From positions 1,436-65,435 of the forward strand of contig CAZDYD010000003.1 of the NCBI GenBank assembly GCA_964509715.1: DNA of 64,000 bases. Reading direction: 5' to 3'. Source of the DNA: an uncultured Chitinophagales bacterium (GTDB lineage Bacteria; Bacteroidota; Rhodothermia; Balneolales; HLUCCA01). The notes under the pieces were generated by a model. The model saw only the letters and a list, made by a program, of their open reading frames with translations, was not told the origin of the DNA and did no database searches. The translations under genes and the position numbers were made by a program. Within the stretch, counting starts at the first letter, position 1; each line of letters opens with the position of its first letter. Shown here in pieces: positions 13,130-64,000 of this stretch.

Positions 13130-13235
13130 CATATCACCAGCAATATATGAGCAGAAAAAAAGACTCATTATTATAGCAAATTCCATAACTTGGCCAGTGA
13201 AAAATCAAATTCATTTACCGGAATAAAACGAATTA

Positions 13236-17265: not shown

Positions 17266-17267
17266 CC

Positions 17268-22305: not shown

Positions 22306-22310
22306 AATAT

Positions 22311-23162: not shown

Positions 23163-23186
23163 TTTTTATAAATAACAACTAACTGC

Positions 23187-25466: not shown

Positions 25467-25513
25467 ATATGTATTCGATGTCCTAAAACCAATCATTGCC
25501 ACTGATCGATTCG

Positions 25514-26530
25514 ATGCCCCCGTTAAAGTATTCGAGAGATAATGTATTATTCATTCAGGGTCCAGAAAAAACTGGTACATCGTCCCTGAATGGGATGCTT
25601 AATGCACACCCACAGATTATGAATCTGTTTGAAGTGTACATGGCTCAATCGTCAATAACTAAGTATGGTCACCAGTTATTGGACAAATATCCATCAGGAA
25701 GGATGTACTTTCGTGAGGATGATGATTACGGAGCGCCATATATAGATTTTTTCAACCACTTTTCGACTTTGGAACCAGATTTCAGTTACACATTCATTGG
25801 TACCAAGATCAATAGTATGGTAGCCGGACTCACAACCAGGAAGTATCCATATAAAACTATTTATACAATTCGTGATGTACGATCCTGGGCTATAAAGCAA
25901 AGCGTGATCAAACATTATCGTACCGAATTGGATATTGTGATTCCAATCATGGCGTATCTGCGGTTTGTTGTAGAAAGTTATAAATACCCCGACATCCTAA
26001 AAATTTGGATGGAAGATATGGTTTTGAACAATAATCATACGTTTGACCGAATCGGAGATTATCTCGAATTGGATTTCAGCAGCTACAAATCTGGATGGTG
26101 GGAAATGTTTGGCGCACATAGCGAGACGGATCCCAAAAGTACCTTTCGATTGTCACACATCCACCATTCTTCCCAGATCAAACCAGAGCGTTTAGATACA
26201 TCCTACAAACTTGCGGACCACCCGTTCTGGAATGAAGTGAGTGAAATATTTGATAAATATTATCTGAAAAATGACGAGGGTGCACTTTCAGATGCGATTA
26301 TGGCCCAAGATCTTCAGAGGATTGAACGGCTTCATACATATGCCCCGCTAACAATCGAAGATGCATATATTGGAATCAAAACCGAACGGTTTGGTGACCT
26401 CAAGTCCGAAAAAATCGAGTTCGATAAGTCCAACACGATACTTCCAGAAAATGAATCCCTGATGGCCAGAATCATTCGAAGATTACATCGGATCAATCAG
26501 GCGGCCAGAGGTAAAACCATACTTGATTGA
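25514..26530 (+). CDS. Putative PAPS-dependent sulfotransferase
   Basis: 5'-PSB-like loop PEKTGTSSL (nt 25562-25588) and a 3'-PB-like motif IRDVRSWAIKQS (nt 25871-25903) about 100 aa downstream, which is the canonical spacing. No other recognisable family motif. ATG at 25514 is preferred over TTG at 25496. Confidence 0.6.
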   Translation: MPPLKYSRDNVLFIQGPEKTGTSSLNGMLNAHPQIMNLFEVYMAQSSITKYGHQLLDKYPSGRMYFREDDDYGAPYIDFFNHFSTLEPDFSYTFIGTKINSMVAGLTTRKYPYKTIYTIRDVRSWAIKQSVIKHYRTELDIVIPIMAYLRFVVESYKYPDILKIWMEDMVLNNNHTFDRIGDYLELDFSSYKSGWWEMFGAHSETDPKSTFRLSHIHHSSQIKPERLDTSYKLADHPFWNEVSEIFDKYYLKNDEGALSDAIMAQDLQRIERLHTYAPLTIEDAYIGIKTERFGDLKSEKIEFDKSNTILPENESLMARIIRRLHRINQAARGKTILD

Positions 26531-39775: not shown

Positions 39776-39776
39776 A

Positions 39777-43663: not shown

Positions 43664-43768
43664 AAACAAATCTGAGTTGAATCCGTTGAATGGGATAACA
43701 TTCAACCCATGTAAAAACTACATTGAAGAGAATAGAGTTTTGAAAAGCGTTTCACATTCATAGTGCCG

Positions 43769-48567: not shown

Positions 48568-48618
48568 ATATGATGGTGCCTATAAATCATCATCATTCGA
48601 TTCGAAACAACTGAATAC

Positions 48619-49749: not shown

Positions 49750-49760
49750 AACTTAATCAA

Positions 49761-50828: not shown

Positions 50829-51979
50829 GTTTAGAGTTCGGATCTACATATCATCCCGGTGACCATGTTAAAATGCAAGTTCCCTTTGTTGATCTGAGAG
50901 CTCAGTATGATCTGCTCAAACCATCTGTTGATGAGGCCATTCAGCGGGTAATCGATCGCTCAGCTTTCATCGGTGGCGAAGAGGTCCAAGCATTTGAGCA
51001 GGAATATGCCCAACTGTTTGGAGTAAAACATTGCATCTCCACTGCGAATGGGACAGATTCACTGTACATTGTGCTTAAGATGCTCGGAATTGGTCCGGGT
51101 GATGAAGTCATAACCGTTGCAAATAGTTGGATTTCAACATCAGAAACAATCTCCCAGACTGGAGCACGCGTCGTATTCTGTGATATTGAACCCGATTATT
51201 TTACCATTGATCCGGTTCAAGTAGAACGATTGATCACGAAAAATACCAAAGCGATCGTACCGGTTCATCTGTACGGACAATCCTGCAATATGGATGCCCT
51301 TACGGAGATTTCCGACAAATTTGACATCCCCATCGTTGAGGACTGTGCACAATCACATCTGGCTGAATTTCGCGGGAAGAGAACGGGACTTTATGGTGTT
51401 GCCGGGTCGTTCAGTTTTTATCCCGGGAAAAATCTGGGTGCTTATGGTGACGCGGGATGTATTATCACGAATGACGATGCTTTGGCAATGAAATTTCGCA
51501 TGTTTGCCCGACATGGTGCTTTGAAAAAGCATAATCACGAAATGGAAGGGATCAATAGTCGGATGGATGGATTACAGGCGGCTGTATTACGCACAAAGCT
51601 TCTATATCTCGAATCATGGACCGCCATGCGACAATCCAGAGCCAGGTTATATGATGAATGGCTTAGTGAGATCCCTCAAGTACACATTCCCATTGTGAGA
51701 GAGCATTCAACCCATGTGTATCATCTCTACGTAATTCGAACAGATCACAGAGACCAACTGGCGGCATTTTTATCAGAAAAGGGGATTCAGACAGGCATCC
51801 ATTATCCTACAGCACTTCCTAATCAACCCGCATATGGATACCTGGGACACAAACCTACTGATTTTCCAATTGCATCAGAATATCAATCCAAGATATTGTC
51901 CCTTCCAATGTACCCTGAATTGTCGGAAAGTCAGGTACAATTCGTTTGTGATGCCATAAATACATTCTACTCAGCATGA
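50825..51979 (+). CDS. DegT/DnrJ/EryC1 PLP aminotransferase (second copy)
   Basis: VPFVDLRAQY, STANGTDSLYIVL, SFYPGKNLGAYGDAG and NSRMDGLQAAVL. Alternative ATG at 50873. Confidence 0.9.
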   Translation: MSLEFGSTYHPGDHVKMQVPFVDLRAQYDLLKPSVDEAIQRVIDRSAFIGGEEVQAFEQEYAQLFGVKHCISTANGTDSLYIVLKMLGIGPGDEVITVANSWISTSETISQTGARVVFCDIEPDYFTIDPVQVERLITKNTKAIVPVHLYGQSCNMDALTEISDKFDIPIVEDCAQSHLAEFRGKRTGLYGVAGSFSFYPGKNLGAYGDAGCIITNDDALAMKFRMFARHGALKKHNHEMEGINSRMDGLQAAVLRTKLLYLESWTAMRQSRARLYDEWLSEIPQVHIPIVREHSTHVYHLYVIRTDHRDQLAAFLSEKGIQTGIHYPTALPNQPAYGYLGHKPTDFPIASEYQSKILSLPMYPELSESQVQFVCDAINTFYSA

Positions 51980-52108
51980 CAACCCATCTGAGCTCTTTAC
52001 AATTGTATACAATCGATTCTTGAAATTTTTCAGTACCGTCGGGCAATATCAATCAGATATGATTTGAAACTGATGAGTGTACCCACATCTTTATTTACAA
52101 GCTGAAAG

Positions 52109-53371
52109 TTGAAGTCCGAATCTCCCAAAAAAATATGGCTCATCTGCAAGTATGCGATGCCACAAAAATACTTCTTTGGAACCCGTCATTTTTATCTGGC
52201 CGAAGAATGGGTTCGAAACGGACATCAGGTCACCATTTTCACATCCAACTGGAACCACCTGACAGATAAACTTCCTCAGTTTGATGGATCGGTGATGATT
52301 GAGTCCATTAACGATGTCGAAACAGTATGGTTCAAAGGATTTAAAACGAAAAGTTCATCATCAGTTGGAAGAATCTTGAGTTGGATCGAGTTTGAGTGGC
52401 GAATGTTGCTTGAGGGGACACGTCGAAGCCAAATAGAGCAACCCGATGTTGTAATAGTGTCATCCCTTTCTTTGTTTAGCGTGCTTTCCGGGCTGTTTTT
52501 TTCACGCAAACATGGTGCAAGATTTCTGCTTGAGATCCGAGATATCTGGCCACTCACGGCCATGCAATTAGGGGGATATTCCCCAAGACATCCATTCATG
52601 TTGCTCATGGGATGGATAGAAAAACTTGGGTACAAGAATGCTGATGCGATCATTGGAACCATGCCCAACCTTGAAGAGCACATCAGAAATGTTTGTCCTG
52701 ATGCCGCAAAAGTGGTGAATGTACCACAAGGGGTGACCCGAAATTTCCTGAATGAGTTTAATCCAATGGATGCCGGTCTAAAGGAAAAACTTTTCCCTGA
52801 AAACAGTCCCATGTTTCGAGTGGTCTATGCCGGGGGCATGAATGTCGGTAATCCGGTTCAGGTGTTACTGGATGCAGCTGTGTTGCTGGGTGAAAATTCA
52901 GGAGTGGAAGTTGTTATGCTCGGTAAAGGTTCGGATGTGAACAGACTAAAAGCCAAATATCAAGAGTATCCCAATATCAAATTTGTAGATCAGATACCCA
53001 AAAATCAGGTACGTGATTTCCTTCAACACTGTGATCTGTGTTTCGATAGTATCGGGGGGGATATTGCCCGCTATGGTCATTCCCGGAATAAATGGATGGA
53101 TTATCTTGCTTCCGCAAGACCTATAGTCTGTGCGACCAGCGGATTCCGTTCCATTCTCGAAGAGGCTGAATGTGGTGAACATATTGACTTCGATGACGTT
53201 GCCAAACTCGCTCATACGATACTAAAATACAAGGAAATGGATCCTTCAACCCGGCTTGAAATCGGGTTAAATGGGCGCCGATATCTTGAGAAAAACCGCA
53301 CATTCGACAAATTGGCTGCTGTTTATGAAACGTTGTTTGCAGAAACTCATCAGCAATCAAATCCACATTAA
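52109..53371 (+). CDS. Glycosyltransferase family 4 (WbuB-like)
   Basis: KIWLICKYAMPQKYFFGTRHFYLAEEWVRNGHQVTIFTSN is the characteristic WbuB-type N-terminus. GT-B C-terminal half. TTG start. Confidence 0.8.
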   Translation: MKSESPKKIWLICKYAMPQKYFFGTRHFYLAEEWVRNGHQVTIFTSNWNHLTDKLPQFDGSVMIESINDVETVWFKGFKTKSSSSVGRILSWIEFEWRMLLEGTRRSQIEQPDVVIVSSLSLFSVLSGLFFSRKHGARFLLEIRDIWPLTAMQLGGYSPRHPFMLLMGWIEKLGYKNADAIIGTMPNLEEHIRNVCPDAAKVVNVPQGVTRNFLNEFNPMDAGLKEKLFPENSPMFRVVYAGGMNVGNPVQVLLDAAVLLGENSGVEVVMLGKGSDVNRLKAKYQEYPNIKFVDQIPKNQVRDFLQHCDLCFDSIGGDIARYGHSRNKWMDYLASARPIVCATSGFRSILEEAECGEHIDFDDVAKLAHTILKYKEMDPSTRLEIGLNGRRYLEKNRTFDKLAAVYETLFAETHQQSNPH

Positions 53372-53392
53372 TTTTAACACTCGTTTTACAAG

Positions 53393-54196
53393 ATGAACCA
53401 TACAGTTCAAATAAGTTCCATAATCGATATCGCTAAGAAAGCTGGTGAAATCATCCTCAAGTACTATCACACAGATACTGATGTACAGAGTAAGGTAGAT
53501 GCCTCCCCCTTGACGATTGCCGATCTTGAATCAAATAATTTTATACGCGAAGAGTTGGCTCGACTCACCCCTGACATACCTGTCATTAGTGAGGAAACCG
53601 TACCCGAATCGTATGAAGTACGTCGAGAGTGGGATACTTTTTGGTTAGTGGATCCACTCGATGGAACGAAGGAATTCGTTAAGAAAACGGGTCAGTTTAC
53701 TGTAAACATCGGACTGATATCCGGAGGAATTCCAGTACTTGGGGTCATTGAAGTACCGGTTATGAATCAAGTATACTATGCTGATGAAAACGGGGCTTGG
53801 CATGTGGACAGACAGTATGGCTCCGAACCACGTAAACTTCAGGTCCGGCCTTTAGATGAACAACAAATCGACATCGTGGCAAGCCGAGATCACGCAGGAC
53901 CAATGGTACAGGCGTTGTCGCAGGACCTCCCTGGCGCCGGATTCAAGTCCATGGGGAGTTCTCTCAAGTTCTGTCTGGTTGCAGCAGGCGAGGCGGATGT
54001 CTACCTTAGGGATGTCCCAACCATGGAATGGGACACCGCGGCCGCTCATGCTATCTTAAAGGCTGCCGGTGGTGAAATCTATACGCTTAATGGTATCGTG
54101 CTGAATTACAATAAAGAATCGTTGAGAAATCCTTCCATTTTGAGCATTGGTCCAGCGCGTGAATTCTGGTTCGATAAAATATCATCGATTTCCTGA
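53393..54196 (+). CDS. cysQ: 3'(2'),5'-bisphosphate nucleotidase CysQ (PAP phosphatase)
   Basis: Inositol monophosphatase-fold motifs EE...WLVDPLDGTKEF and GSSLKFCLVAAGEADVY; 267 aa, typical of CysQ. Confidence 0.88.
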   Translation: MNHTVQISSIIDIAKKAGEIILKYYHTDTDVQSKVDASPLTIADLESNNFIREELARLTPDIPVISEETVPESYEVRREWDTFWLVDPLDGTKEFVKKTGQFTVNIGLISGGIPVLGVIEVPVMNQVYYADENGAWHVDRQYGSEPRKLQVRPLDEQQIDIVASRDHAGPMVQALSQDLPGAGFKSMGSSLKFCLVAAGEADVYLRDVPTMEWDTAAAHAILKAAGGEIYTLNGIVLNYNKESLRNPSILSIGPAREFWFDKISSIS

Positions 54197-54275
54197 TTCC
54201 GACATCCATAATAATGTTTGGTTTTATTCCAAATCCAATTGTCTGTCTTTCCTTTCAAAAAACTGTTGAATGTAA

Positions 54276-55532
54276 TTGGTGAAGAACCATGATTGTACCA
54301 CTGATCCAGATTATTTTACACCACCATTGATTGGAAAACGACTCAATAGAGTGATCGTCATCGGTGGCGGTATTGTGGGACTTGCTACGGCATATACGCT
54401 GCAAAAAGAGGGTTACGCCAGGCAGGTCACTGTATTGGAAAAAGAATTTGATGTTGCCAGGCACCAGAGCAGCCGAAATAGCGGTGTACTTCATGCAGGA
54501 CTCTATTACAGACCGGGTAGTTTAAAAGCCCGGTTGGCAACACAGGGAATCAGATCCATGATCGCATTTTGCACTGAAAATGATATCCCATTTCGTTGTC
54601 GTGGAAAAATGGTTGTTGCCACTCATACTCGGGAAGTCCCCATTCTGGAACAACTGTTTGAAAATGGTATGAAAAATGGCCTGGTGGGACTCAAAAAACT
54701 CGGTTTGAATGAAATTCAAGAGATCGAACCTCATGTTACTGGTCAAGCAGCAATTTTGGTTCCCGAAGAAGGAGTGGTAGATTATGAGCAGGTCACAATG
54801 CGCCTCAGAGATCTTGTGGTGCATGCAGGAGGTGAAATTCTAACAAAGTTCGAAGTGGCACATGCCGTACGATCCGGGATATCATGGCAATTGTTCAGTA
54901 CCGACGAGCGCACTATAAATGCAGACCTGGTGATTAATTGTGCCGGGCTTTACTCTGACAAAATCGCCGAAATGTTTGGGATAGACTCAGGTATTCGAAT
55001 AATTCCCTTCCGGGGGCATTACTATCGGCTCGTAGGCGACGCTATTGGCTATGTCAAGGGACTTGTGTATCCGGTACCAGATCCGAAATTTCCATTCCTT
55101 GGGGTACATGCACATCGGCGCATCGATGGAACAGTTGAAGCCGGACCGAATGCTGTGTTGGCTTTTGCACGTGAAGGATACCACTTGACTGATGTTAATA
55201 TTCCCGAAATGGTCGAAGCGATAGGTCACCCGGGACTGCTTCGATTCATGCTCAGACACAAAAAAGAAGTAATGAACGAACTCAGGTCCGGATTCGATAA
55301 ATCATATTTTGTTTCGCGCTTGCAGTCACTGTTTCCGGAGATTCAATCCAATGACCTGCAACCGGGAGGGACCGGAGTCCGAGCTCAGGCCATGGATAAA
55401 AAAGGCAATCTCATCCAGGATTTTGTGATACAACGCGGCCCCGGGTCGATACACGTAATAAATGCGCCAAGTCCGGGTGCGACTGCATCCCTTGCGATTG
55501 CAAAACACATCACCAGACTCATACCATCATGA
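54276..55532 (+). CDS. lhgO: L-2-hydroxyglutarate oxidase/dehydrogenase (LhgO/YgaF family FAD enzyme)
   Basis: Collinear with my memory of E. coli LhgO: VIVIGGGIVGLATA, NSGVLHAGLYYRPGSLKA, IIPFRGHYYRL, YPVPDPKFPFLGVHAHRRIDGTVEAGPNAVLAFAREGY, GVRAQAM and INAPSPGATAS. The start is uncertain. Confidence 0.88.
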   Translation: MVKNHDCTTDPDYFTPPLIGKRLNRVIVIGGGIVGLATAYTLQKEGYARQVTVLEKEFDVARHQSSRNSGVLHAGLYYRPGSLKARLATQGIRSMIAFCTENDIPFRCRGKMVVATHTREVPILEQLFENGMKNGLVGLKKLGLNEIQEIEPHVTGQAAILVPEEGVVDYEQVTMRLRDLVVHAGGEILTKFEVAHAVRSGISWQLFSTDERTINADLVINCAGLYSDKIAEMFGIDSGIRIIPFRGHYYRLVGDAIGYVKGLVYPVPDPKFPFLGVHAHRRIDGTVEAGPNAVLAFAREGYHLTDVNIPEMVEAIGHPGLLRFMLRHKKEVMNELRSGFDKSYFVSRLQSLFPEIQSNDLQPGGTGVRAQAMDKKGNLIQDFVIQRGPGSIHVINAPSPGATASLAIAKHITRLIPS

Positions 55533-57511
55533 GTATCAAACCCGGTCAGGTGTTCAAAGAATTTCGGTACTTCCACGACGTACTGAAACATCGGATTTTC
55601 ATAGTTTTGGGGATGAGTGTGTTTGCCGGGATACTGGATGTTTTCGGATTGACCATGTTCCTTCCATTGTTGTCGATTGTACTTGGTGCCCAAAGTAGTT
55701 TACAGGGAGCCTCAGACCCGGCTAACCTTGAATTTCTGGTCAATTACTTCGACAGGTTTGGTATTAGTCTCAACCTGATCAATGTCATCATCATCATGAT
55801 GATATTCTTCTCATTGAAAGCTGTGTTCCGCTTTCTGGAAGGTTATTTCAGAGTCCTCAACCTCGAATTTTTCATGAGATCGAACCGCGAACGTCTCATT
55901 GGTTATATGCGCGACCTGCGGTACGAATCTTTTTTGAAACTCGACACAGGTCGGATTCAGAATACACTTACAGGCGAAGTAGTCAGAGTGATGATGTCAT
56001 TACAACACTACTTGGTCGTACTTCAGCAACTCATTGTCTTATTAGTATACGTGGTGTTCGCTATCGTTGCGAATCCGGCCTTTGCTTTGATGCTGGCTAC
56101 CGGTGCACTACTTACCAACCTGATTATCTCGAGGTTTTACAAACGCATAAAATGGTGGTCGAACAAACTTACGGGCATGAACAACGAGTACCATGGATTT
56201 TTGACACAAGAAGTTCAACATTTCAAGTACCTGAAAGCCACCGGTATAATTGTATCATTTACTGAAAAACTCTTCGGATCAGTTCGTGAAATTGAAAAAT
56301 CGAACCGAAAAATGGGACTCATGTTCTGGGTGGTTCAGGCGCTACGTGAACCGCTCCTGTTGGTCGTATTGTTTACTGTAATCGTAATTGAAGTCCAGGT
56401 GTTGCAAGGAAATGTAGCTTTAATGTTACTGAGTCTGTTGTTCACATACCGGGCGCTCACTGTCGCAATGCAACTGCAACTTGATTGGAGTAATTTTTTG
56501 CAAGTATCGGGTTCCTTACAGAATCACAAAGAATTCGAACGGGAGTTGCGTGGAGGCAGAGAACGTAAAGAGGCGTGGATGTCGCATTACTCCGTGGATG
56601 AAGATGACATCGATTCGGATTTGGAAACACCCCTCAGCACTACGATCCGATCATCGGAGTCTGGCACGATCGATGAAGACAGGTCGAAAAATGCCGATCA
56701 AACCTCATCCGTGAAAGATGTTAACGTTGATGATGTCAACCCAACACCTGAACGTGTAGATACTTCAGTGATCGATGATTCATATCCGTTCATCAAGATC
56801 CAGAATATGAATCTGCAATTTGATGGAAAGTTCATATTAAAGGATATTAACCTTGAGGTGCGTCAAAACACCAGTGTAGCCATTGTTGGAGCCAGCGGCT
56901 CAGGCAAAACCACACTTGTAAATGTAATTTGTGGGCTATTACGTCCGTCGTCGGGTATTATCTGGTTACATGGACGATCCATGAACATGATGCATCCTTC
57001 TGAGTTTCGTCACCGATACGGTTATATAACCCAAGAACCAGTTATTTTCAATGATACTCTGTTTAACAACATCACCTTATGGGATGAAAAAACCGAAGAG
57101 TCCAGACGTAAATTCGACCATGTTGTAGAGCAGGCGTATTTGGGAGACGTGATGCGTGACATGCCAAAAGGGAGTGATAGCATGCTGGGTCCGAATGGCA
57201 TAAACATCAGTGGTGGACAAAAACAGCGTATTGCTATAGCACGTGAACTGTATCGTGACACTGAAATCCTTATAATGGATGAAGCCACTTCCTCATTGGA
57301 CTCCGAGTCTGAAAAAATCATTCAAACGCAGATCGATAGATTGAAAGACACACACACGTTGCTCATCGTAGCGCACAGGTTGTCAACCATTAGAAATGCT
57401 GACCTCGTTGTGTTAATGAACGATGGACGAATAGAGACTACTGGAACGTTCCATGAGCTGATGCAACGTTCACAAACATTCAAGCGCATGGTTGAATTAC
57501 AGGATTTGTGA
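55529..57511 (+). CDS. Type-I ABC exporter, fused permease/ATPase (MsbA-like) with acidic inter-domain insertion
   Basis: 6-TM N-terminal half. The NBD carries Walker A GASGSGKTT, signature ISGGQKQRIAIAR and Walker B ILIMDEATS. A ~80-aa D/E/S-rich insertion lies between the TMD and NBD. Confidence 0.92.
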   Translation: MSIKPGQVFKEFRYFHDVLKHRIFIVLGMSVFAGILDVFGLTMFLPLLSIVLGAQSSLQGASDPANLEFLVNYFDRFGISLNLINVIIIMMIFFSLKAVFRFLEGYFRVLNLEFFMRSNRERLIGYMRDLRYESFLKLDTGRIQNTLTGEVVRVMMSLQHYLVVLQQLIVLLVYVVFAIVANPAFALMLATGALLTNLIISRFYKRIKWWSNKLTGMNNEYHGFLTQEVQHFKYLKATGIIVSFTEKLFGSVREIEKSNRKMGLMFWVVQALREPLLLVVLFTVIVIEVQVLQGNVALMLLSLLFTYRALTVAMQLQLDWSNFLQVSGSLQNHKEFERELRGGRERKEAWMSHYSVDEDDIDSDLETPLSTTIRSSESGTIDEDRSKNADQTSSVKDVNVDDVNPTPERVDTSVIDDSYPFIKIQNMNLQFDGKFILKDINLEVRQNTSVAIVGASGSGKTTLVNVICGLLRPSSGIIWLHGRSMNMMHPSEFRHRYGYITQEPVIFNDTLFNNITLWDEKTEESRRKFDHVVEQAYLGDVMRDMPKGSDSMLGPNGINISGGQKQRIAIARELYRDTEILIMDEATSSLDSESEKIIQTQIDRLKDTHTLLIVAHRLSTIRNADLVVLMNDGRIETTGTFHELMQRSQTFKRMVELQDL

Positions 57512-57607
57512 TGTTGATCATTATTTCGGAGTTCAGGTTATGATATCATCCAGTTTAGATCGTTGGATTTAATTATGCATTCGGATAAAAACGGTTAGGT
57601 CACATAT

Positions 57608-59425
57608 ATGAGTGCTGATGCAATTTTAACCATAGTAACAATTCTGGCGGTGTTATTGGCATTGTTCAGAGAGGTGACACGTCCGGATGTGATTTTCATT
57701 GTCGGACTATTGTTCCTGATGGTGACCGGCGTGTTGACACCCAATCAGGCTTTCAGTGGATTTGCGAATCCTGCAGTATTCACCGTCGGGGCATTGTTCA
57801 TAGTGGCAGCAGGAATTCAGCGTACCCGTGCACTCGGATTTCTGGATCATGTGGTCTTCAATGATCAGTTTTCAGCGCGAAAGGTTTTGGCAAGAATGAT
57901 GGCATCGACTGCAACTATGAGTTCGTTTCTGAATAACACTCCCATTGTGGCCATGCTCATCCCTCAGGTTCAACAATGGTCAGATAGAACAGGAATTCCA
58001 GCATCAAAACTATTGATTCCACTATCGTATGCAGCTATCGTTGGCGGTGTTGTGACATTGATTGGAACATCGACCAACATCATCGTATCTGGAATGCTCG
58101 AACAGAGGGGGATAGCTCCACTGGCACTGTTCGAGTTAACATGGATCGGGCTGCCTGCTGCAGTATTATTGGTTATCTGGTTCGTTACGTTTGGATACAG
58201 AATGCTACCGGAGCGAAAAGTAAAAGCAGAGGTGAAGAATCCGGGGTTTGAGAATGAACCAGCAATACAATCGGGTGATTCGAACTCCCATTCGAATGGG
58301 AACGGTTATCAGATGGATCTGAAAGTTGGACCAGAGTCAGTATTGATCGGACAAACTGTGGAAGATGCCGGACTACGTGGGTTAGAGCATGCCTTCTTGA
58401 TCCACGTACATCGCCATGGACGCACCATTGGTCCGATTGGTCCCCACTTTATCCTTGAGGAAGGGGATATTTTGACTTTTATCGGTGATGTAAAGGCCAT
58501 CGATGAGATGAGTGTCAGAAAAGGTTTGGCTCGGGGTACACCTGTGCTTGACGCCAGTGAACCTGATCTCCCACTTTTTGAAGCCGTCGTCGCGCCGACA
58601 TCCATTTTGGTCGGTAAAACATTGAAACAGATAGAATTTCGGGAACGGTTTCATGCAGTGGTGATCGGAATACAGCGCCAGACAGAAGAGATTCGTGGTG
58701 CATTGGGAAATCTACCCATTGAAGCGGGTGATCTGTTGCTTATCGAATCCAAAGAAGGTTTTGATGAGCGTGCCAATAATGATAAGGACAACTTCTACTT
58801 GGTTACACGCAAGGGCTCACGGCAACTACCGGTGAACAAAAAAGCTCGATTGGCCCTGATGTTAACAGGCCTAATGATTCTGATTGCAACATTTGAAATC
58901 ATTCCGATCGTGACGGCCGCCATGATCACGGCCGCAGTAATGATCTATACAGGATGTGTGAAAAAAGATCAGATCATGGCATCGTTGAATCTACCCATAT
59001 TGTTGGTTATAGCTGCAGCGATTGGTTTGGGTCAGGCTATTGAAACGACGGGACTTGCCGTAAACGCCGCCGGGCTCATTAACGAATATACCGCGGTGTT
59101 TGGTCCAATCGCGATCATCGCTGGAGTGTATATTCTTACAAATATACTTACAGAGCTCATTACCAATAATGCAGCGGCTGTGCTTATGTTGCCGATTGCA
59201 CTTGCATTAGGAATCGAAACGGGAATCACTCCTCATGCTATGGCTGTGACCGTTGCTATTGCTGCATCGGCCAGTTTTCTGACTCCAATCGGGTATCAGA
59301 CGAACCTCATGGTTATGGGGGCGGGACGCTACAGGTTCAAAGATTACCTGAAGGCTGGTTTCCCGGTGACCCTTTTCATGTTAATTCTCACTATCTTTAC
59401 CGTAGATTTTATCTGGAACCGTTAA
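57608..59425 (+). CDS. SLC13/DASS-family anion permease with two internal TrkA-C (RCK_C) domains; probable sulfate uptake
   Basis: Two hydrophobic halves flank a ~200-aa soluble region with a duplicated TrkA-C-like motif (LIGQTVEDAGLRGLEHAFLIHVHRHGR and LVGKTLKQIEFRERFHAVVIGIQRQTE). Immediately upstream of cysD. Confidence 0.85.
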   Translation: MSADAILTIVTILAVLLALFREVTRPDVIFIVGLLFLMVTGVLTPNQAFSGFANPAVFTVGALFIVAAGIQRTRALGFLDHVVFNDQFSARKVLARMMASTATMSSFLNNTPIVAMLIPQVQQWSDRTGIPASKLLIPLSYAAIVGGVVTLIGTSTNIIVSGMLEQRGIAPLALFELTWIGLPAAVLLVIWFVTFGYRMLPERKVKAEVKNPGFENEPAIQSGDSNSHSNGNGYQMDLKVGPESVLIGQTVEDAGLRGLEHAFLIHVHRHGRTIGPIGPHFILEEGDILTFIGDVKAIDEMSVRKGLARGTPVLDASEPDLPLFEAVVAPTSILVGKTLKQIEFRERFHAVVIGIQRQTEEIRGALGNLPIEAGDLLLIESKEGFDERANNDKDNFYLVTRKGSRQLPVNKKARLALMLTGLMILIATFEIIPIVTAAMITAAVMIYTGCVKKDQIMASLNLPILLVIAAAIGLGQAIETTGLAVNAAGLINEYTAVFGPIAIIAGVYILTNILTELITNNAAAVLMLPIALALGIETGITPHAMAVTVAIAASASFLTPIGYQTNLMVMGAGRYRFKDYLKAGFPVTLFMLILTIFTVDFIWNR

Positions 59426-59510
59426 CTGGGGGATTGAACGCATCGTTTGTACTAACTCTGCGTTGATCAACTAAAAACCTCAAGTAAATGGTGAACACCA
59501 AAACGTCATC

Positions 59511-60407
59511 ATGCAAACATCTCATTTAAAAATTCTTGAAAATGAAGCGATTCACGTAATGCGTGAAGTAGCCGCTCAATTCGAACGACCAGCATTGCTG
59601 TTTTCCGGAGGGAAAGACTCAATTATCATGGTCCATCTGGCCAGGAAGGCATTTTATCCGGCAAGGATTCCCTTTCCATTAATCCATATCGATACCGGAC
59701 ATAATTTTTCGGAGACCATTGAATTCCGTGATTGGTTGGTCAAAGAAACTGGTGCCCGACTCATAGTAGGACATGTTCAAGACAGTATAGATGCCGGACG
59801 TGTTGTCGAAGAAACGGGTCCTGAAGCCAGTCGAAACGGACTTCAAACGGTCACCCTACTCGATACGCTGAAAAAGCATCAAATCGATGCCGCACTCGGT
59901 GGAGGTCGACGAGATGAAGAAAAAGCACGTGCCAAAGAGCGTTTTTTCTCCCACCGGGACATTTTCGGACAATGGGATCCCAAGAACCAACGACCTGAGT
60001 TGTGGAACTTGTACAATGGTCGCAAAAACCAGGGAGAACAATTCCGTGTATTTCCCATATCGAACTGGACCGAAATGGATGTGTGGCAATACATCGCTTT
60101 GGAGAACATCGCCATCCCAAGTATCTATTTCGCACATAAGCGAAACGTGTTCAATCGTCGTGGCACCTGGCTGGACGACAACGAATTTATACAGCGATAT
60201 CCTGATGAAGTGGTTGAGAATCGCATCGTGAGGTTCCGAACCATTGGTGATGCGACATGTACAGGAGCTGTCTTATCGGAGGCATCGAACCTGGATGAGA
60301 TCATTCAGGAAGTCGCAGCTGCCCGTCAGACAGAACGTGGAAACAGACATGATGACAAGCGTTCTGAGACGGCCATGGAAGATCGCAAAAGAGCCGGGTA
60401 CTTCTAG
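59511..60407 (+). CDS. cysD: Sulfate adenylyltransferase subunit 2
   Basis: LKILENEAIHVMREV, PP-loop LLFSGGKDS, HIDTGHNF, RVFPISNWTEMDVWQYI and the C-terminal RKRAGYF*. Confidence 0.96.
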   Translation: MQTSHLKILENEAIHVMREVAAQFERPALLFSGGKDSIIMVHLARKAFYPARIPFPLIHIDTGHNFSETIEFRDWLVKETGARLIVGHVQDSIDAGRVVEETGPEASRNGLQTVTLLDTLKKHQIDAALGGGRRDEEKARAKERFFSHRDIFGQWDPKNQRPELWNLYNGRKNQGEQFRVFPISNWTEMDVWQYIALENIAIPSIYFAHKRNVFNRRGTWLDDNEFIQRYPDEVVENRIVRFRTIGDATCTGAVLSEASNLDEIIQEVAAARQTERGNRHDDKRSETAMEDRKRAGYF

Positions 60408-60591
60408 TTTTTGTGAAACCCACCACTGACACCTATTTGAATGTGTAGTGTTGAATGTGGTTATCCGCTGAGTTTTGCTTCAAAAAAATAGGCGTCTAAA
60501 CATTATTCAACACGACAGGGAATTTATGGTGTTCTATGTGGAGTAAGTAGCCACAAAAATTATCCAAAAGACCATTTAATATTTTTTTTAT

Positions 60592-62475
60592 ATGTCATAC
60601 CTAGAAATGGATTTACTTCGGTTCAGTACAGCTGGATCGGTTGATGATGGAAAGAGCACACTGATCGGTCGTCTTTTGTACGATTCAAAGTCGATATTTG
60701 AAGACCAGATGGAGGCCATAGAGAAGACATCCAAGAACACTGGTGAAGAAGGAGTGAATCTGGCGTTGCTCACCGATGGACTTCGGGCCGAGCGTGAGCA
60801 GAAGATCACCATTGATGTAGCCTACCGTTATTTTGCTACACCGAAACGTAAATTTATTATAGCCGACACCCCGGGACATATCCAGTACACACGTAACATG
60901 GTTACCGGGGCTTCTACAGCTGACTTGGCCATCATCTTGGTAGATGCTCGAAAAGGAGTCCTGACTCAATCGAAAAGACACTCTTTTATCGCATCACTTT
61001 TACAGATTCCGCACATGGTCGTGGCCGTGAACAAAATGGATCTGGTTGAGTATAGTGAAGATCGATTCAATGAAATCGTAGATGATTTCAAGAAGTTCGC
61101 TCAAAAACTCGAGATCGACGACATTACTTTTATACCTATTTCGGCCCTCAAGGGGGATAACATTGTAAACAAGGGGGATAACATGCCTTGGTACAATGGT
61201 TCTACTCTGTTGCACACCTTGGAGAATGTCAACGTGGGATCACGTCGAAACATGATCGATTTCAGATTTCCGGTACAGTACGTTGTTCGACCGAATCAGG
61301 ATTTTCGCGGATTTGCAGGGACAGTAGCATCGGGTACAATCAGGGTGGGTGAGGATATTACAGTACTTCCATCACGATTTAAAAGCAAAGTGAAGGAAGT
61401 TTGGCAATATGACAAAAGTATTCAGGAAGCCTACAGCGGTGAGTCCGTCGTCATAACCATTGAAGACGAAATCGACATCAGCCGAGGTGATATGCTGGTC
61501 CGTAGTGGGAACCTACCCTCTGTAAACCAGGAGTTTGAGGCATTTGTCTGCTGGATGAACGAACAGGCCATGGAACCCGGCAAGAGTTATTATATTCAAC
61601 ATACCACTCGAATGGCTATGGCCATTCCGGATAAAGTACGATACAAAATCGATGTGGATACACTTCACCGGGAGCAGACCGACACTCTGCAACTCAATGA
61701 AATAGGTCGCGTTCGTATAAAAGTCTCTCAACCCATTTTCAGCGATCCATATAAAATAAATAATGCCACTGGTAGTTTTATACTGATCGATTCTGCATCG
61801 AATGTCACGGTTGGTGCCGGAATGATCAGGGCAATTTACACCGATGAGAATGGGGCAGAAGTAAATGTGGATGAATCATTTGCTACTGCGCCCCATCGTA
61901 ATATCGTTTGGGAACCGTGGAATATTCCACGTGAAATCCGTGAAAAGCGGAATGGACATCCTGCTAAAGTACTCTGGTTCACTGGAGTGTCTGGCGCAGG
62001 GAAGTCTACAATTGCTCGTGCACTTGAGCAAAAACTCTACGAATCCGGGAAGCAGACCATGCTTTTGGATGGGGATCAGGTACGCCACGGACTCAATGCT
62101 GATCTCGGATTTGATCCGAAGGACCGAACTGAAAACATTCGTAGGGTTGGTGAAGTGGCCCGACTTTTCTACGAACATGGTAATATCGTGCTCTGTACCT
62201 TCGTATCTCCCTATAAATCTGATCGGGATGCGGTGCGATCCTTGTTCCCGGATGGGGATTTTATCGAGATTCATGTAACGGCAGATCATCAAACTCTGAT
62301 TGAACGTGATCCCAAGGGACTATACAAGAAAGCACAATCGGGCGAGATTACCAACCTGACTGGTTTCAATGCGGGGCATGAAGCTCCGGTCCACTCAGAT
62401 GCGATTCAGATTGACACAACCATGATGAGTGTCGATGATGCCATCGAAGTGGTTCTAAAGCGATTGGCTCAGTAA
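60592..62475 (+). CDS. cysNC: Bifunctional sulfate adenylyltransferase subunit 1 / adenylylsulfate kinase
   Basis: GTPase motifs GSVDDGKSTLIGRL, DTPGH and NKMD. The C-terminal APS kinase has the P-loop FTGVSGAGKSTIA and LDGDQVRHGLN. Confidence 0.96.
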   Translation: MSYLEMDLLRFSTAGSVDDGKSTLIGRLLYDSKSIFEDQMEAIEKTSKNTGEEGVNLALLTDGLRAEREQKITIDVAYRYFATPKRKFIIADTPGHIQYTRNMVTGASTADLAIILVDARKGVLTQSKRHSFIASLLQIPHMVVAVNKMDLVEYSEDRFNEIVDDFKKFAQKLEIDDITFIPISALKGDNIVNKGDNMPWYNGSTLLHTLENVNVGSRRNMIDFRFPVQYVVRPNQDFRGFAGTVASGTIRVGEDITVLPSRFKSKVKEVWQYDKSIQEAYSGESVVITIEDEIDISRGDMLVRSGNLPSVNQEFEAFVCWMNEQAMEPGKSYYIQHTTRMAMAIPDKVRYKIDVDTLHREQTDTLQLNEIGRVRIKVSQPIFSDPYKINNATGSFILIDSASNVTVGAGMIRAIYTDENGAEVNVDESFATAPHRNIVWEPWNIPREIREKRNGHPAKVLWFTGVSGAGKSTIARALEQKLYESGKQTMLLDGDQVRHGLNADLGFDPKDRTENIRRVGEVARLFYEHGNIVLCTFVSPYKSDRDAVRSLFPDGDFIEIHVTADHQTLIERDPKGLYKKAQSGEITNLTGFNAGHEAPVHSDAIQIDTTMMSVDDAIEVVLKRLAQ

Positions 62476-62484
62476 GCCACCCTA

Positions 62485-64000
62485 ATGTTCAAAGATTACG
62501 CAAGAGCATTACATCTAATCTGGAAAGCGGATCCCAAAAACGCTTTTAGCCAGGTTATCGCGCAATCTTTGCTGGCTGTTTTGCCGGTTTTGATACTTGC
62601 TGCAATTAAATCCATGTTTGATTCGATTGCAGCTGAAAATCCGGTGATGGATGTTGCTGTGCACGCGCTCGTGATCCTCGCAGCTCTTACATTATTTCAA
62701 TCGGCTGTAACCCAATGGTTACAGTATCTTTCAACCACTCATCAGCAGCGACTTACGGATTATGTAGCCGGGCATATACTCGAAAAATCGATACATATTC
62801 CGTATACCTACTTTGAGGATCATCAGTATCATGACTCGTTGCACCTGGCCCAACGACAGTCTATTTTCAAACTTCCCCAGGTATTCCAGCAATTTCAGTT
62901 GCTGGGGACCAATATGCTATCCCTTGTGCTGTTGGTCGCATACTTCTTTTCTCTGATAACCACCTATGCATGGGTCATCTTGTTGGTATCCATTCCGGTT
63001 GCCGGCATAAAATGGTTCAGTGGATTCGCATTGCAACGTTTGGAACGCAAACTGGTCCCGGCCGAAAGAGAGGCAGGGTACTATCACATGATTATGACCG
63101 GTGAAGAATATGCAAAGGAAATCCGAACATTGAACTTCGGGAGTTCTTTTCTGGAACGCTTCAACCAGCTAAGGGAGATGATCTACAACCGCAAACGAGG
63201 ACTACATCGCCGATTGTTGCTTTTCACCATGGTGGCAGAGTTGGCTGAAGTAGCCGTATTCTTTGGAATAATCTATGGTGTTATTCAACAATCATTCGCT
63301 GGACTGGTAACAATTGGATTGTTGGTCGTTTACATTCAAGGTCTGCAGAAGATCCAAACAAACCTGAAAGCCTTCTTGAACGCAGGAGTCCAACTTGCTA
63401 CTCAAAAGATGTTCCTACGGGATATTTTCCGATTTTTGGATATTGACTTCAACAAACAAGATCAGGGTGACATTTCATTTCCATCTACCCATTTTGATAT
63501 TCACATTTCCGATCTTTCTTACAGATATCCCGGAGGCCATAAATACGCGGTTAAAGATGTGAATATGACGCTGAAATCGGGGCAAGTCATAGGACTTGTC
63601 GGGGCAAATGGGTCAGGCAAATCTACATTGGTAAAATTGTTGGCCGGACTATACGAACCCGAATCAGGCTCGATCAACATCGGTGGACACCCACTCGATT
63701 CGATCAATATTGATGCATACAGAAACTCAAGTCTGTTTTTATATCAGGACTTTGAAAAGTATTTTTTAAGCGTAGAAGACATTATCAGTATTGGCCAGGA
63801 TAAAATCGAAAATCATGCCGAACGCTTACAAAATGCATTGAAAAAATCGGATGCGGAAGCGTTTGTACGCAGTCTACCTGATGGTGTAAAAACCAAAATG
63901 GGAAGAATTTTCAGAGATGGAGCCCAGTTGAGTGGCGGACAATGGCAAAAATTATCCATAGCCCGGGCTTTTTATCGTCAGCCGAAAATCGTGGTTCTTG
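62485..64000 (+). CDS. Type-I ABC exporter, fused permease/ATPase (second MsbA-like); 3' end beyond the window
   Basis: ATG at 62485, with the frame open to the window edge, so it is not in the ORF track. The TM half is followed by Walker A GANGSGKSTL (from nt 63601, in frame) and the signature LSGGQWQKLSIARAF. Confidence 0.9.
   Translation, partial: MFKDYARALHLIWKADPKNAFSQVIAQSLLAVLPVLILAAIKSMFDSIAAENPVMDVAVHALVILAALTLFQSAVTQWLQYLSTTHQQRLTDYVAGHILEKSIHIPYTYFEDHQYHDSLHLAQRQSIFKLPQVFQQFQLLGTNMLSLVLLVAYFFSLITTYAWVILLVSIPVAGIKWFSGFALQRLERKLVPAEREAGYYHMIMTGEEYAKEIRTLNFGSSFLERFNQLREMIYNRKRGLHRRLLLFTMVAELAEVAVFFGIIYGVIQQSFAGLVTIGLLVVYIQGLQKIQTNLKAFLNAGVQLATQKMFLRDIFRFLDIDFNKQDQGDISFPSTHFDIHISDLSYRYPGGHKYAVKDVNMTLKSGQVIGLVGANGSGKSTLVKLLAGLYEPESGSINIGGHPLDSINIDAYRNSSLFLYQDFEKYFLSVEDIISIGQDKIENHAERLQNALKKSDAEAFVRSLPDGVKTKMGRIFRDGAQLSGGQWQKLSIARAFYRQPKIVVL

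What the first reader, a model, noticed from the sequence alone, without database searches (positions are those of the whole stretch)
53393..62475. Dedicated PAPS supply and recycling module at the 3' end of the glycan locus (NodPQ-like logic)
cysQ (PAP phosphatase), an SLC13/TrkA-C anion permease, cysD and a fused cysN-cysC are co-directional and contiguous with the glycosyltransferase genes. Together they take sulfate up, activate it to PAPS and remove the inhibitory PAP by-product. No PAPS/APS reductase or sulfite reductase genes (cysH/I/J) occur in the window, which argues against a simple cysteine-assimilation operon. The arrangement parallels rhizobial nodP/nodQ supplying PAPS for NodH sulfation of Nod factor. 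The same locus also holds NodU-type carbamoyltransferases.
Basis: partly seen in the sequence, partly recalled or inferred. Interest (0 to 1): 0.65.

Follow-up and report, generated by a model that had tools for sequence, protein, structure and literature searches.

The report
PAPS supply unit beside sulfotransferase clusters
The sulfate-uptake, activation and PAP-recycling genes are real and look like a supply unit for sulfotransferases rather than for cysteine synthesis, but their most conserved partner is a sulfotransferase-containing lasso-peptide gene cluster that starts 9 bases after cysNC, with the upstream glycan locus as a likely second user.

Summary
All four named genes are confirmed at the stated coordinates: cysQ, a CitMHS/DASS permease with two TrkA-C domains, cysD, and a cysN-cysC fusion. 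The span also holds two unmentioned genes between cysQ and the permease: an LhgO-like flavoprotein and an ABCB-type exporter. No cysH or sulfite reductase occurs in the window or about 14 kb downstream.

A second ABC exporter starts at 62485. It is the 'D' transporter of a paeninodin-like lasso-peptide cluster that continues beyond the window. That cluster has three WxxP-leader precursors, an HprK-like kinase and a degenerate paralogue, a canonical Sulfotransfer_1, B1, B2, a cyclase, glycosyltransferases and methyltransferases.

The order permease-cysD-cysNC-(0-5 genes)-exporter-kinases-sulfotransferase recurs in three further lineages. Eight more distant homologous clusters each carry their own APS kinase.

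The glycan reading also has support. ORF 25496-26530 is a divergent sulfotransferase-fold protein, and a homologue lies directly after cysNC in another genome. Balneolales relatives place the same cys genes inside polysaccharide loci that contain sulfotransferases.

Verdict: this is a PAPS supply unit for secondary sulfation, probably shared by both pathways. The logic is known, so this is a new variant. Whether it is the only cysDNC copy could not be tested.

The parts
25496..26530 (+). Probable divergent PAPS-dependent sulfotransferase inside the nonulosonic-acid part of the glycan locus, between a PseB-like dehydratase gene and a DegT aminotransferase gene.
   Evidence: Weak Sulfotransfer_3 hit (E 2.1e-5, 25.3 bits against a cut-off of 27). 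The family is rare, with 10 homologues, and conserves PEKTGTS and RDxRxW..K.S motifs. AlphaFold model has pLDDT 72.6. The top 50 Foldseek PDB hits are all PAPS sulfotransferases, though TM-scores are only 0.3-0.45. It is the only window ORF hit by a custom sulfotransferase HMM (E 2.7e-7). A 43%-identical homologue lies directly after cysNC in L120. The same position is kept in MAG UBA11400.
52109..53371 (+). GT4-family glycosyltransferase, the last gene before cysQ.
   Evidence: Pfam Glyco_trans_4_4 and Glyco_trans_1_4. A 55%-identical homologue lies between cysNC and the lasso exporter in L113, so the border between the glycan locus and the lasso cluster is blurred.
53393..54196 (+). cysQ, 3'(2'),5'-bisphosphate nucleotidase (PAP phosphatase).
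   Evidence: TIGR01331 286.7 bits against a cut-off of 228.8; Pfam Inositol_P. Starts 21 nt after the GT4 stop.
54276..55532 (+). FAD-dependent oxidoreductase, L-2-hydroxyglutarate-oxidase-like.
   Evidence: Pfam DAO 197 bits; NF008726 474 bits against a cut-off of 299. Absent between cysQ and the permease in L116.
55529..57511 (+). ABCB-type exporter (divergent membrane domain plus ATPase), overlapping the oxidoreductase stop by 4 nt.
   Evidence: Pfam ABC_tran at aa 437-588. Generic ABCB/MsbA/PglK hits. Only 29% identical to the second exporter, and only over the ATPase domain.
57608..59425 (+). Anion permease of the CitMHS/DASS (SLC13-like) type with two TrkA-C domains; inferred sulfate importer.
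   Evidence: CitMHS 229 bits, TrkA_C x2, Na_sulph_symp 42.5 bits. A homologue is next to cysD/cysNC in 36 of 80 genome loci. 81-82% identical in the lasso-linked lineages L113 and L116, about 38% in Balneolaceae.
59511..60407 (+). cysD, sulfate adenylyltransferase small subunit.
   Evidence: NF003587 454.8 bits and TIGR02039 433.2 bits, both above cut-off.
60592..62475 (+). cysN-cysC fusion: the GTPase subunit of ATP sulfurylase plus APS kinase.
   Evidence: NF004035 907 bits against a cut-off of 715. GTP_EFTU at aa 8-192 and APS_kinase at aa 459-603.
62485..64000 (+). 5' part of the second ABC exporter (582 aa in full), the 'D' transporter of the downstream lasso-peptide cluster.
   Evidence: Open frame from ATG 62485 to the window end; full length in L001-L006. 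Homologues lie inside lasso clusters: Algoriphagus limi has cyclase-exporter(53%)-kinase-B1-B2, and L113, L116 and L117 have it at 71-75% identity.

Best explanation
The block 53393-62475 is a sulfate import, activation and PAP-recycling unit whose main job is to feed PAPS to sulfotransferases, not to make cysteine.

Inferred mechanism: the permease imports sulfate. CysD with the CysN domain makes APS, and the fused CysC domain makes PAPS. CysQ hydrolyses the PAP that sulfotransferases release.

Two clients flank the unit.

1. The evolutionarily conserved partner is a paeninodin-like lasso-peptide cluster. It starts with the ABC exporter at 62485 and continues beyond the window. It holds three WxxP-leader precursors, an HprK-like kinase and a degenerate paralogue, a Teg12/SULT-like Sulfotransfer_1, the B1 recognition protein, the B2 peptidase, an Asn-synthase-type cyclase, GT1-type glycosyltransferases and methyltransferases. 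The predicted product is a sulfated, further decorated lasso peptide.
2. A likely second client is the divergent sulfotransferase-fold protein at 25496-26530, in the nonulosonic-acid part of the upstream capsule-like locus.

Shown here: gene identities, gene order, conserved synteny, and recurrence of PAPS genes in homologous clusters. Inferred: sulfate specificity of the permease, co-transcription, the actual acceptors, and that the unit is not also used for assimilation.
For: Gene identities score above curated cut-offs.

The genes are tightly packed and co-directional: GT-cysQ gap 21 nt, oxidoreductase/exporter overlap 4 nt, cysNC-exporter gap 9 nt.

No cysH or sulfite reductase lies in the window or about 14 kb downstream.

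The downstream cluster is a lasso-type cluster.
- Sulfotransfer_1, E 2.6e-26.
- B2 passes NF033537 (47.7 bits against 33). The best hit of B1 is lasso_PqqD. Both AsnS-like proteins hit the lasso cyclase model best.
- Precursors with a WxxP leader are conserved at equal length in orthologous clusters.

Exporter homologues sit inside lasso clusters.

The order permease-cysD-cysNC-(0-5 genes)-exporter-kinase-kinase-sulfotransferase(-B1-B2-cyclase) is kept in L113/L114, L116 and L117. In those lineages cysNC is 80-82% identical and the sulfotransferase 61-66% identical.

Eight more distant clusters (L095-L102, sulfotransferase 45-47% identical) each encode a stand-alone APS kinase of about 170 aa within the cluster, in several of them between the sulfotransferase/B1 genes and B2.

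The lasso sulfotransferase is closest in sequence to Teg12, Teg14 and StaL, which sulfate peptide antibiotics.

Evidence for the glycan client:
- Sulfotransferase motifs and fold of ORF 25496.
- Its homologue lies directly after cysNC in L120.
- It keeps the same position in UBA11400.
- Relatives' cys operons lie in Wza/Wzc/Wzz loci, and five loci have Pfam-confirmed sulfotransferases within 10 kb of cysNC.

CysH in the Balneolales assimilation operons has the CC...CxxC motif of APS reductases. By established knowledge those enzymes do not need the CysC step.
Against: No expression or chemical data exist. Sulfated products are predicted, not observed.

The rest of the genome could not be searched. 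This may be the only cysDN copy, in which case it would also feed an APS reductase encoded elsewhere, as the single cysDNC of Mycobacterium tuberculosis does (from memory).

The lasso core genes are separated from the exporter by a convergent minus-strand gene pair, so they are not in the same transcript as the cys genes.

In L091 (sulfotransferase 80% identical) the gene just upstream of the kinases is a glycosyltransferase, not the exporter. That contig is too short to show whether cys genes lie nearby.

The kinase assignment rests on weak hits (E 0.036 in Pfam, 8e-7 in NCBIfam). The B1 and cyclase scores are below NCBIfam cut-offs.

The structural model of ORF 25496 is of moderate confidence and its TM-scores are low.

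The promoter and terminator scans were uninformative.
Confidence: 0.65

Rival explanations
1. One reading: the unit serves only the upstream glycan locus and supplies PAPS to sulfate a capsule or O-antigen-like polysaccharide. The lasso cluster is an unrelated neighbour.
For: cysQ starts 21 nt after the last GT, in one long co-directional array. A sulfotransferase-fold gene lies in the locus, and its family is linked to cysNC in L120. Polysaccharide export genes flank the cys genes in 18 of 80 relatives' loci, and five loci have confirmed sulfotransferases within 10 kb of cysNC. A convergent gene pair separates the exporter from the lasso core genes.
Against: Conserved synteny ties the cys genes to the exporter, kinases and sulfotransferase in three further lineages. 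Homologous lasso clusters recruit their own APS kinase. The only canonical sulfotransferase nearby is the lasso one. The upstream side of the cys unit could not be seen in those lineages, so conservation of the glycan link there is unknown.
Confidence: 0.15
2. Ordinary housekeeping sulfate activation: this is the genome's only cysDNC set and feeds cysteine synthesis through a reductase encoded elsewhere. Its position between two secondary-metabolism loci is incidental.
For: Some Balneolales relatives have permease-(cysQ)-cysD-cysNC as part of a true assimilation operon with cysH, sulfite reductase and a tetrapyrrole methylase. Thirty of 80 loci keep the permease-cysQ-cysD order whatever the neighbours are. 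cysQ is also needed when PAPS reductase is used (established knowledge).
Against: There are no reductive genes within about 60 kb upstream or 14 kb downstream. The cysH genes of relatives are of the APS-reductase type, which makes the CysC domain unnecessary for assimilation. Linkage with sulfotransferase-bearing clusters recurs across lineages. Among the 80 loci, those with cysH and those with polysaccharide export genes do not overlap.
Confidence: 0.15
3. The unit, together with the oxidoreductase and the first ABC exporter, makes and exports some other sulfated small molecule unrelated to either flanking locus.
For: The oxidoreductase and first exporter are translationally coupled and lie inside the unit. 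Their roles are unexplained.
Against: The pair is missing from the same place in L116, where cysQ directly precedes the permease. No sulfotransferase is associated with the pair.
Confidence: 0.05

Closest known systems
Bacteroides thetaiotaomicron BT_0411-BT_0415 PAPS cluster next to sulfotransferase BT_0416 (cholesterol sulfate; PMC9417993)
   Same: Same phylum. A sulfate importer plus PAPS-synthesis genes lie next to a Sulfotransfer-family enzyme that acts on a non-assimilatory acceptor.
   Different: The acceptor there is a host sterol, and there is one sulfotransferase. Here the unit lies between a capsule-like locus and a lasso-peptide cluster, cysN and cysC are fused, and two extra genes are inserted.
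Rhizobial NodP/NodQ with NodH (established knowledge, from memory)
   Same: CysD and CysN-CysC homologues supply PAPS to a sulfotransferase that decorates a secreted glycoconjugate. NodQ is also a CysN-CysC fusion.
   Different: nodPQ are extra, symbiosis-regulated copies beside the housekeeping cysDN; copy number is unknown here. No NodH-family enzyme was identified. Here an importer and cysQ are part of the unit.
Xanthomonas RaxP/RaxQ with RaxST, RaxX and RaxAB (PMC9484694 passage; the rest from memory)
   Same: PAPS synthesis supports sulfation of a ribosomal peptide that is exported by an ABC transporter.
   Different: RaxX is a linear tyrosine-sulfated peptide, and raxPQ are not adjacent to raxST (from memory). 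Here the peptide class is lasso, and the PAPS genes are physically linked to the cluster.
Paeninodin-type lasso-peptide clusters of Bacillota with HPr-kinase homologues and putative sulfotransferases, some embedded in capsule loci (PMC8498205, PMC4289311, PMC13381572)
   Same: WxxP leader, split B1/B2, HprK-like kinase, MsbA-like exporter, an extra sulfotransferase gene of unknown role, and a location inside a glycosyltransferase-rich polysaccharide locus.
   Different: Those are in Bacillota. The passages retrieved by keyword from these papers do not mention PAPS-synthesis genes in the clusters, and the three searches of the held library turned up no characterised sulfated lasso peptide among the hits listed. 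Here the cluster is in Bacteroidota and is linked to a full sulfate import, activation and recycling unit.
Synechan xss cluster of Synechocystis (sulfated exopolysaccharide; PMC8205485)
   Same: Sulfotransferases lie inside a bacterial polysaccharide locus.
   Different: Different phylum. That paper's abstract says cyanobacteria are unique among bacteria in making sulfated extracellular polysaccharides. The Balneolales loci seen here suggest a wider distribution, but only on genomic grounds.

Membership tests
CysD/CysN-CysC PAPS synthesis | CysD PP-loop subunit and CysN GTPase fused to an APS kinase, scoring above curated family cut-offs | tested here: met
   TIGR02039 433 bits against 396.6; NF004035 907 bits against 715; APS_kinase domain at aa 459-603.
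CysQ PAP phosphatase | Inositol-monophosphatase fold scoring above the CysQ equivalog cut-off | tested here: met
   TIGR01331 286.7 bits against 228.8. The E. coli-type model NF008182 is below its cut-off (230 against 379).
Sulfate permease (SLC13/DASS) | Membership of the DASS family and sulfate as substrate | tested here: inconclusive
   CitMHS 229 bits and Na_sulph_symp 42.5 bits pass Pfam cut-offs, but TIGR00785 scores 109.7 against 198.6. Sulfate specificity is inferred only from adjacency to cysD/cysNC in 36 of 80 loci.
Assimilatory sulfate-reduction operon | cysH (APS or PAPS reductase) and sulfite reductase linked to cysDN | tested here: not met
   None in the 64 kb window or about 14 kb downstream. 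Present in relatives L039, L044-L046 and L050.
NodPQ-type dedicated PAPS supply | An extra cysDN(C) copy beside a housekeeping set | not testable with these tools
   The rest of the genome is not available. The organism is not among the species representatives searched; the best cysNC match is 81%.
NodPQ-type dedicated PAPS supply | Physical linkage to a sulfotransferase that acts on a secreted product | tested here: met
   Sulfotransfer_1 lies 5 kb downstream in an exporter-bearing lasso cluster. A sulfotransferase-fold ORF lies in the glycan locus.
Lasso-peptide biosynthetic cluster (paeninodin-like) | B2 transglutaminase-like leader peptidase | tested here: met
   Pfam Transglut_core3; NF033537 47.7 bits against a cut-off of 33.
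Lasso-peptide biosynthetic cluster (paeninodin-like) | B1 PqqD-like recognition element | tested here: met
   Pfam PqqD. The best NCBIfam hit is lasso_PqqD_Bac, 42 bits, below the strict cut-off of 80.
Lasso-peptide biosynthetic cluster (paeninodin-like) | Asn-synthase-type macrolactam cyclase | tested here: inconclusive
   Asn_synthase plus GATase_6/7, 603 aa. The best NCBIfam hit is the lasso cyclase model NF033535, 197 bits, below its cut-off of 525.
Lasso-peptide biosynthetic cluster (paeninodin-like) | Short precursor with a [Y/W]xxPx[L/V/I] leader, a Gly/Ser ring start and Asp/Glu 7-9 residues later | tested here: met
   Three such ORFs in the window species, with orthologues of equal length in L091 and L092 and related ones in L095-L102. 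The cleavage site and ring are inferred.
Lasso-peptide biosynthetic cluster (paeninodin-like) | HprK-like precursor kinase | tested here: inconclusive
   K1: Hpr_kinase_C E 0.036 and TIGR04352 E 8e-7, both far below cut-off. The H...GKS...DD motif is present by eye. K2 lacks the P-loop Lys.
PAPS-dependent sulfotransferase (ORF 25496-26530) | 5'-phosphosulfate and 3'-phosphate binding motifs and the sulfotransferase fold | tested here: met
   PEKTGTS and RDxRxW..K.S are invariant or nearly so in 10 homologues. The top 50 Foldseek hits are all sulfotransferases with probability 0.99-1.0, but TM-scores are 0.3-0.45 and pLDDT is 72.6.
PAPS-dependent sulfotransferase (ORF 25496-26530) | Score above the Pfam gathering threshold | tested here: not met
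   Sulfotransfer_3 25.3 bits against 27, and only aa 18-65 match.

The most novel reading that the evidence does not exclude
A family of lasso-peptide clusters in Balneolales-like and other, untyped (metagenomic) bacteria makes sulfated lasso peptides that are also phosphorylated, glycosylated or methylated. These clusters secure their own PAPS, either with an embedded APS kinase or, as here, with a complete sulfate import, ATP sulfurylase/APS kinase and PAP phosphatase unit. The same unit also feeds a previously unrecognised, highly divergent sulfotransferase family that acts in nonulosonic-acid or capsule biosynthesis. Sulfated lasso peptides, and sulfated capsules in this order, would both be new chemistry.
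Probability: 0.45. Interest if true: 0.65.

Novelty: new variant of a known kind. Interest (0 to 1): 0.5.

Why it matters
Putative sulfotransferases in lasso-peptide clusters have been noted for a decade with no known role (PMC4289311, PMC8498205). Here a full PAPS supply chain is conserved next to such a cluster, and distant versions carry their own APS kinase. This is strong genomic evidence that the enzyme really uses PAPS, and it identifies concrete clusters and precursors to express. It also indicates that sulfated surface polysaccharides may occur in Balneolales. It flags a divergent sulfotransferase-fold family that Pfam scores just below its threshold (25.3 against 27 bits) and that carries no family annotation in most public copies. 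More generally, cofactor-supply genes can mark the border between two adjacent biosynthetic loci, or blur it.

Tried and rejected
- The promoter and terminator scans of 48000-64000 and of the downstream locus gave counts at or below the shuffled controls. Nothing could be said about operon structure. The sigma-70 consensus is also unsuited to Bacteroidota.
- Rfam and tRNA scans of the window found nothing.
- Sequence searches of ORF 25496 against PDB gave only non-significant hits, both as a single sequence and as a profile. The weak profile hits did fall on TPST1 and CurM sulfotransferase motifs. Structure prediction was needed.
- I tried to name the organism through protein cluster members. 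No names are on record for the window's own proteins.
- I considered that the two ABC exporters form a heterodimer split by insertion of the cys genes. I rejected this because they share only 29% identity, in the ATPase domain alone, and because the related lineages have only the second exporter.
- I considered tyrosine as the sulfation site, because Y-x-[T/S] ends five of the six precursors of the window species and its close relatives L091/L092. I did not adopt this, because Tyr is missing from some cores in distant clusters.
- The gene upstream of the kinases in L091 was checked as a possible exporter or cys gene. It is a glycosyltransferase.
- Three searches for a described sulfated lasso peptide, or for PAPS genes in lasso clusters, found nothing relevant among the listed hits of the held open-access library (only the top-ranked papers were shown, and one was opened). 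Subscription papers, such as the RODEO study, could not be checked.

Full report
**What is in the span**

The window is one long + strand array from about 9.8 kb to its end. Between 53393 and 62475 there are six genes, not four:

| Coordinates | Gene | Key evidence |
|---|---|---|
| 53393-54196 | cysQ | TIGR01331 286.7 bits, cut-off 228.8 |
| 54276-55532 | FAD oxidoreductase matching the L-2-hydroxyglutarate oxidase model | NF008726 474 bits, cut-off 299 |
| 55529-57511 | ABCB-type permease/ATPase, 4-nt overlap with the previous gene | Pfam ABC_tran |
| 57608-59425 | CitMHS/DASS permease with two TrkA-C domains | CitMHS 229 bits |
| 59511-60407 | cysD | TIGR02039 433 bits, cut-off 396.6 |
| 60592-62475 | cysN-cysC fusion | NF004035 907 bits, cut-off 715 |

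cysQ begins 21 nt after the GT4 glycosyltransferase gene at 52109-53371. Nine nucleotides after the cysNC stop, a second ABC exporter starts at 62485 and runs off the window. So the named genes are confirmed, but a third of the span is unmentioned genes, and the block is not the end of the array.

**The rest of the window**

Pfam scans of the main (predominantly + strand) ORFs of at least 150 aa (a few ORFs nested on the opposite strand of longer ones were not scanned) show a capsule-like locus. It opens with a NusG-family (UpxY-like) gene at 13236-13751. It continues with:
- Wza- and Wzz-like genes, and a Wzt-type ABC ATPase preceded by an unannotated 286-aa ORF in the position of Wzm;
- a nonulosonic-acid sub-cluster (PseB-like dehydratase, DegT, NeuB, a cytidylyltransferase and two carbamoyltransferases);
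- Wzy_C and several glycosyltransferases.

There is no NIR_SIR domain, and the only PAPS_reduct hit is cysD. Rfam and tRNA scans are empty.

**A sulfotransferase in the glycan locus**

ORF 25496-26530 gave only a sub-threshold Sulfotransfer_3 hit over aa 18-65. Further evidence supports a sulfotransferase assignment.
- It has just ten homologues in 5.8 billion proteins.
- The alignment keeps PEKTGTS and RDxRxW..K.S, which match the 5'-phosphosulfate and 3'-phosphate binding motifs.
- An AlphaFold model (pLDDT 72.6) returns PAPS sulfotransferases, plus the sulfotransferase-fold, PAP-binding retinol dehydratase, as its top 50 PDB matches. Probabilities are 0.99-1.0 but TM-scores are only 0.3-0.45.
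- An HMM built from six confirmed sulfotransferases hits this ORF alone in the window (E 2.7e-7).
- In another metagenomic contig a 43%-identical homologue lies directly after cysNC, in the order permease-cysQ-cysD-Sulfotransfer_3-cysNC-homologue (L120).
- In MAG UBA11400 the homologue sits at the same place in the same glycan locus.

I regard it as a probable, divergent sulfotransferase.

**What lies beyond the window**

Contigs encoding the identical CysNC (L001-L006) and a walk further downstream show the following, in order:
1. The 582-aa exporter.
2. A minus-strand pair: a 31-aa ORF and a 308-aa protein with no family hit.
3. Two paralogous proteins of about 310 aa. The first has weak HprK-like hits. 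The second has a degenerate P-loop.
4. A Sulfotransfer_1 protein (E 2.6e-26), 5 kb from cysNC.
5. PqqD (B1) and Transglut_core3 (B2). B2 passes NF033537.
6. Two GT1-type glycosyltransferases and two methyltransferases.
7. An Asn-synthase-type protein whose best NCBIfam hit is the lasso cyclase model.
8. A GT4-type gene, a SET-domain gene and a second AsnS-like gene.

Three short ORFs carry a KKxWxxPx[L/I/M] leader, a Ser/Gly start and Glu/Asp 8-9 residues later. Orthologues in clusters with roughly 60-80% identical proteins keep the same length. This matches the paeninodin-like lasso type: WxxP leader, HprK-like kinase and MsbA-like exporter. That type has recently been described as embedded in capsule loci in Bacilli (PMC13381572).

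**Which pathway the PAPS unit belongs with**

Homologues of the second exporter are widespread in Bacteroidota and lie inside lasso clusters. In Algoriphagus limi the order is cyclase-exporter-kinase-B1-B2.

Three further lineages keep the order seen here:
- L113/L114: permease (82% identical)-cysD (90%)-cysNC (80%)-AsnS-like-GT4 (55% identical to the window's 52109-53371)-epimerase-toxin/antitoxin pair-exporter (71%)-kinases-sulfotransferase (64%)-B1-B2-cyclase.
- L116: cysQ-permease-cysD-cysNC-epimerase-exporter-kinases-sulfotransferase.
- L117: cysD-cysNC-epimerase-exporter-kinases-sulfotransferase-B1-B2.

A metagenome scan with the lasso sulfotransferase found eight more distant clusters (45-47% identity). 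Each carries a stand-alone APS kinase of about 170 aa within the cluster, in several of them between the sulfotransferase/B1 genes and B2. Their precursors share the same leader.

So PAPS-synthesis genes are a recurrent part of this sulfotransferase-bearing lasso family. In the window's lineage the whole cys unit takes that place. The sulfotransferase is closest in sequence to Teg12, Teg14 and StaL, which sulfate peptide antibiotics.

**Support for the glycan reading from relatives**

A scan of species-representative genomes gave 80 cysNC loci. The best match is 81% (UBA11400), then Balneolaceae at 66-70%. My ORF calling, clustering and Pfam checks show two contexts that do not overlap.
- Six loci have cysH nearby. 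Five of these are Balneolales loci (L039, L044-L046, L050) with a tetrapyrrole methylase, four of them also with sulfite reductase; these are true assimilation operons. Their CysH carries the CC...CxxC motif of APS reductases, so the CysC step is not needed for assimilation there.
- Eighteen loci have Wza, Wzc or Wzz genes within 10 kb of cysNC.
- Five loci have Pfam-confirmed sulfotransferases within 10 kb of cysNC; four of these lie among co-directional genes after cysNC, next to sampled glycan genes (flippase, Polysacc_synt_2, RmlA-type transferase).

PAPS genes inside polysaccharide loci are therefore a theme in this order.

**Conclusion**

The acceptor is not simply the glycan. The unit sits between two sulfotransferase-bearing pathways, and its conserved partner is the lasso cluster. 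The glycan locus is a plausible second user.

The logic itself is known from four systems:
- BT_0411-0416 in Bacteroides (PMC9417993);
- NodPQ/NodH;
- RaxPQ/RaxST;
- mycobacterial CysDNC (from memory).

The linkage to a lasso cluster, and the full import, activation and recycling set, appear to be new. Three searches of the held open-access library turned up no sulfated lasso peptide and no PAPS genes described in lasso clusters among the listed hits.

**Limits**

There are no expression or chemistry data. The rest of the genome is unavailable, so neither a second cysDNC copy nor the location of cysH is known. The operon scans were uninformative. The kinase, B1 and cyclase assignments score below strict family cut-offs. 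The roles of the oxidoreductase and the first exporter are unexplained.

Noticed in passing
window 54276-57511: An LhgO-like FAD oxidoreductase and an ABCB-type exporter, overlapping by 4 nt, are inserted between cysQ and the permease. In L116 cysQ is directly followed by the permease, so the pair looks like an insertion of unknown role.
   Followed up: partly
L003:14544-14639 (-), L087:6600-6704 (+), L087:6095-6193 (-): Three lasso-type precursor ORFs with a KKxWxxP leader. The sequences are MKKNWISPTIEFLAILSGPNVLPVEDTTGES, MSMCKKIWLAPELSQISLLGGTSPFTKEAATYTT and MKSVWIEPSLVLLEIESGAFKSIPVEDAFYTT. Five of the six precursors seen in this species and L091/L092 end in Y-x-[T/S]. The first is translationally coupled to a 308-aa protein with no family hit.
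   Followed up: partly
L003:16019-16948: The second HprK-like paralogue has lost the P-loop lysine and the DD motif (AQRAGITST, FSDQ). The first keeps H...GKS...DD. It may be a pseudokinase partner.
   Followed up: no
L113:9339-9996, 16402-18070, 18993-19540: The orthologous lasso cluster in a related lineage is interrupted by three toxin-antitoxin pairs: MNT/HEPN, HTH-HipA and PhdYeFM/ParE.
   Followed up: no
L039, L044, L045, L046, L050 (cysH-like ORFs): CysH in the Balneolales assimilation operons has the CC...CxxC plus ECGIH motifs typical of APS reductases. The fused CysC domain of the adjacent CysNC should therefore be dispensable for assimilation.
   Followed up: partly
L011, L021, L037: One MAG (LKNA01, labelled Chitinophagaceae bacterium T5-Br10_B2g13) has three separate contigs with cysD-cysNC. 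One follows permease-cysQ, and two are followed by glycan genes and a sulfotransferase. These are either paralogues or a mixed bin.
   Followed up: no
window 12281-13751; L118:1-974: A TauE/SafE-family anion exporter gene directly precedes the NusG-family (UpxY-like) gene at the head of the glycan locus, both in the window and in UBA11400.
   Followed up: no
window 22302-24428 and 43763-45175: The glycan locus holds a Wzt-type ABC ATPase (23187-24428), preceded by an unannotated 286-aa ORF (22302-23162, no Pfam hit) in the position of Wzm, and also a Wzy_C-type gene. This suggests that two polymers, or a hybrid pathway, are encoded in the 40 kb array.
   Followed up: no
window 38492-40889: A CDP-glycerol-type glycerophosphotransferase-like gene and an APH/TCAD9 kinase-like gene lie side by side inside the glycan locus. 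This hints at phosphate-containing decorations as well.
   Followed up: no
L120:3614-11071: A compact operon in an unrelated metagenomic contig that also encodes a Por_Secre_tail-domain protein (suggesting Bacteroidota): permease-cysQ-cysD-Sulfotransfer_3-cysNC-homologue of ORF 25496. Two sulfotransferase-type genes are interleaved with the PAPS genes.
   Followed up: partly
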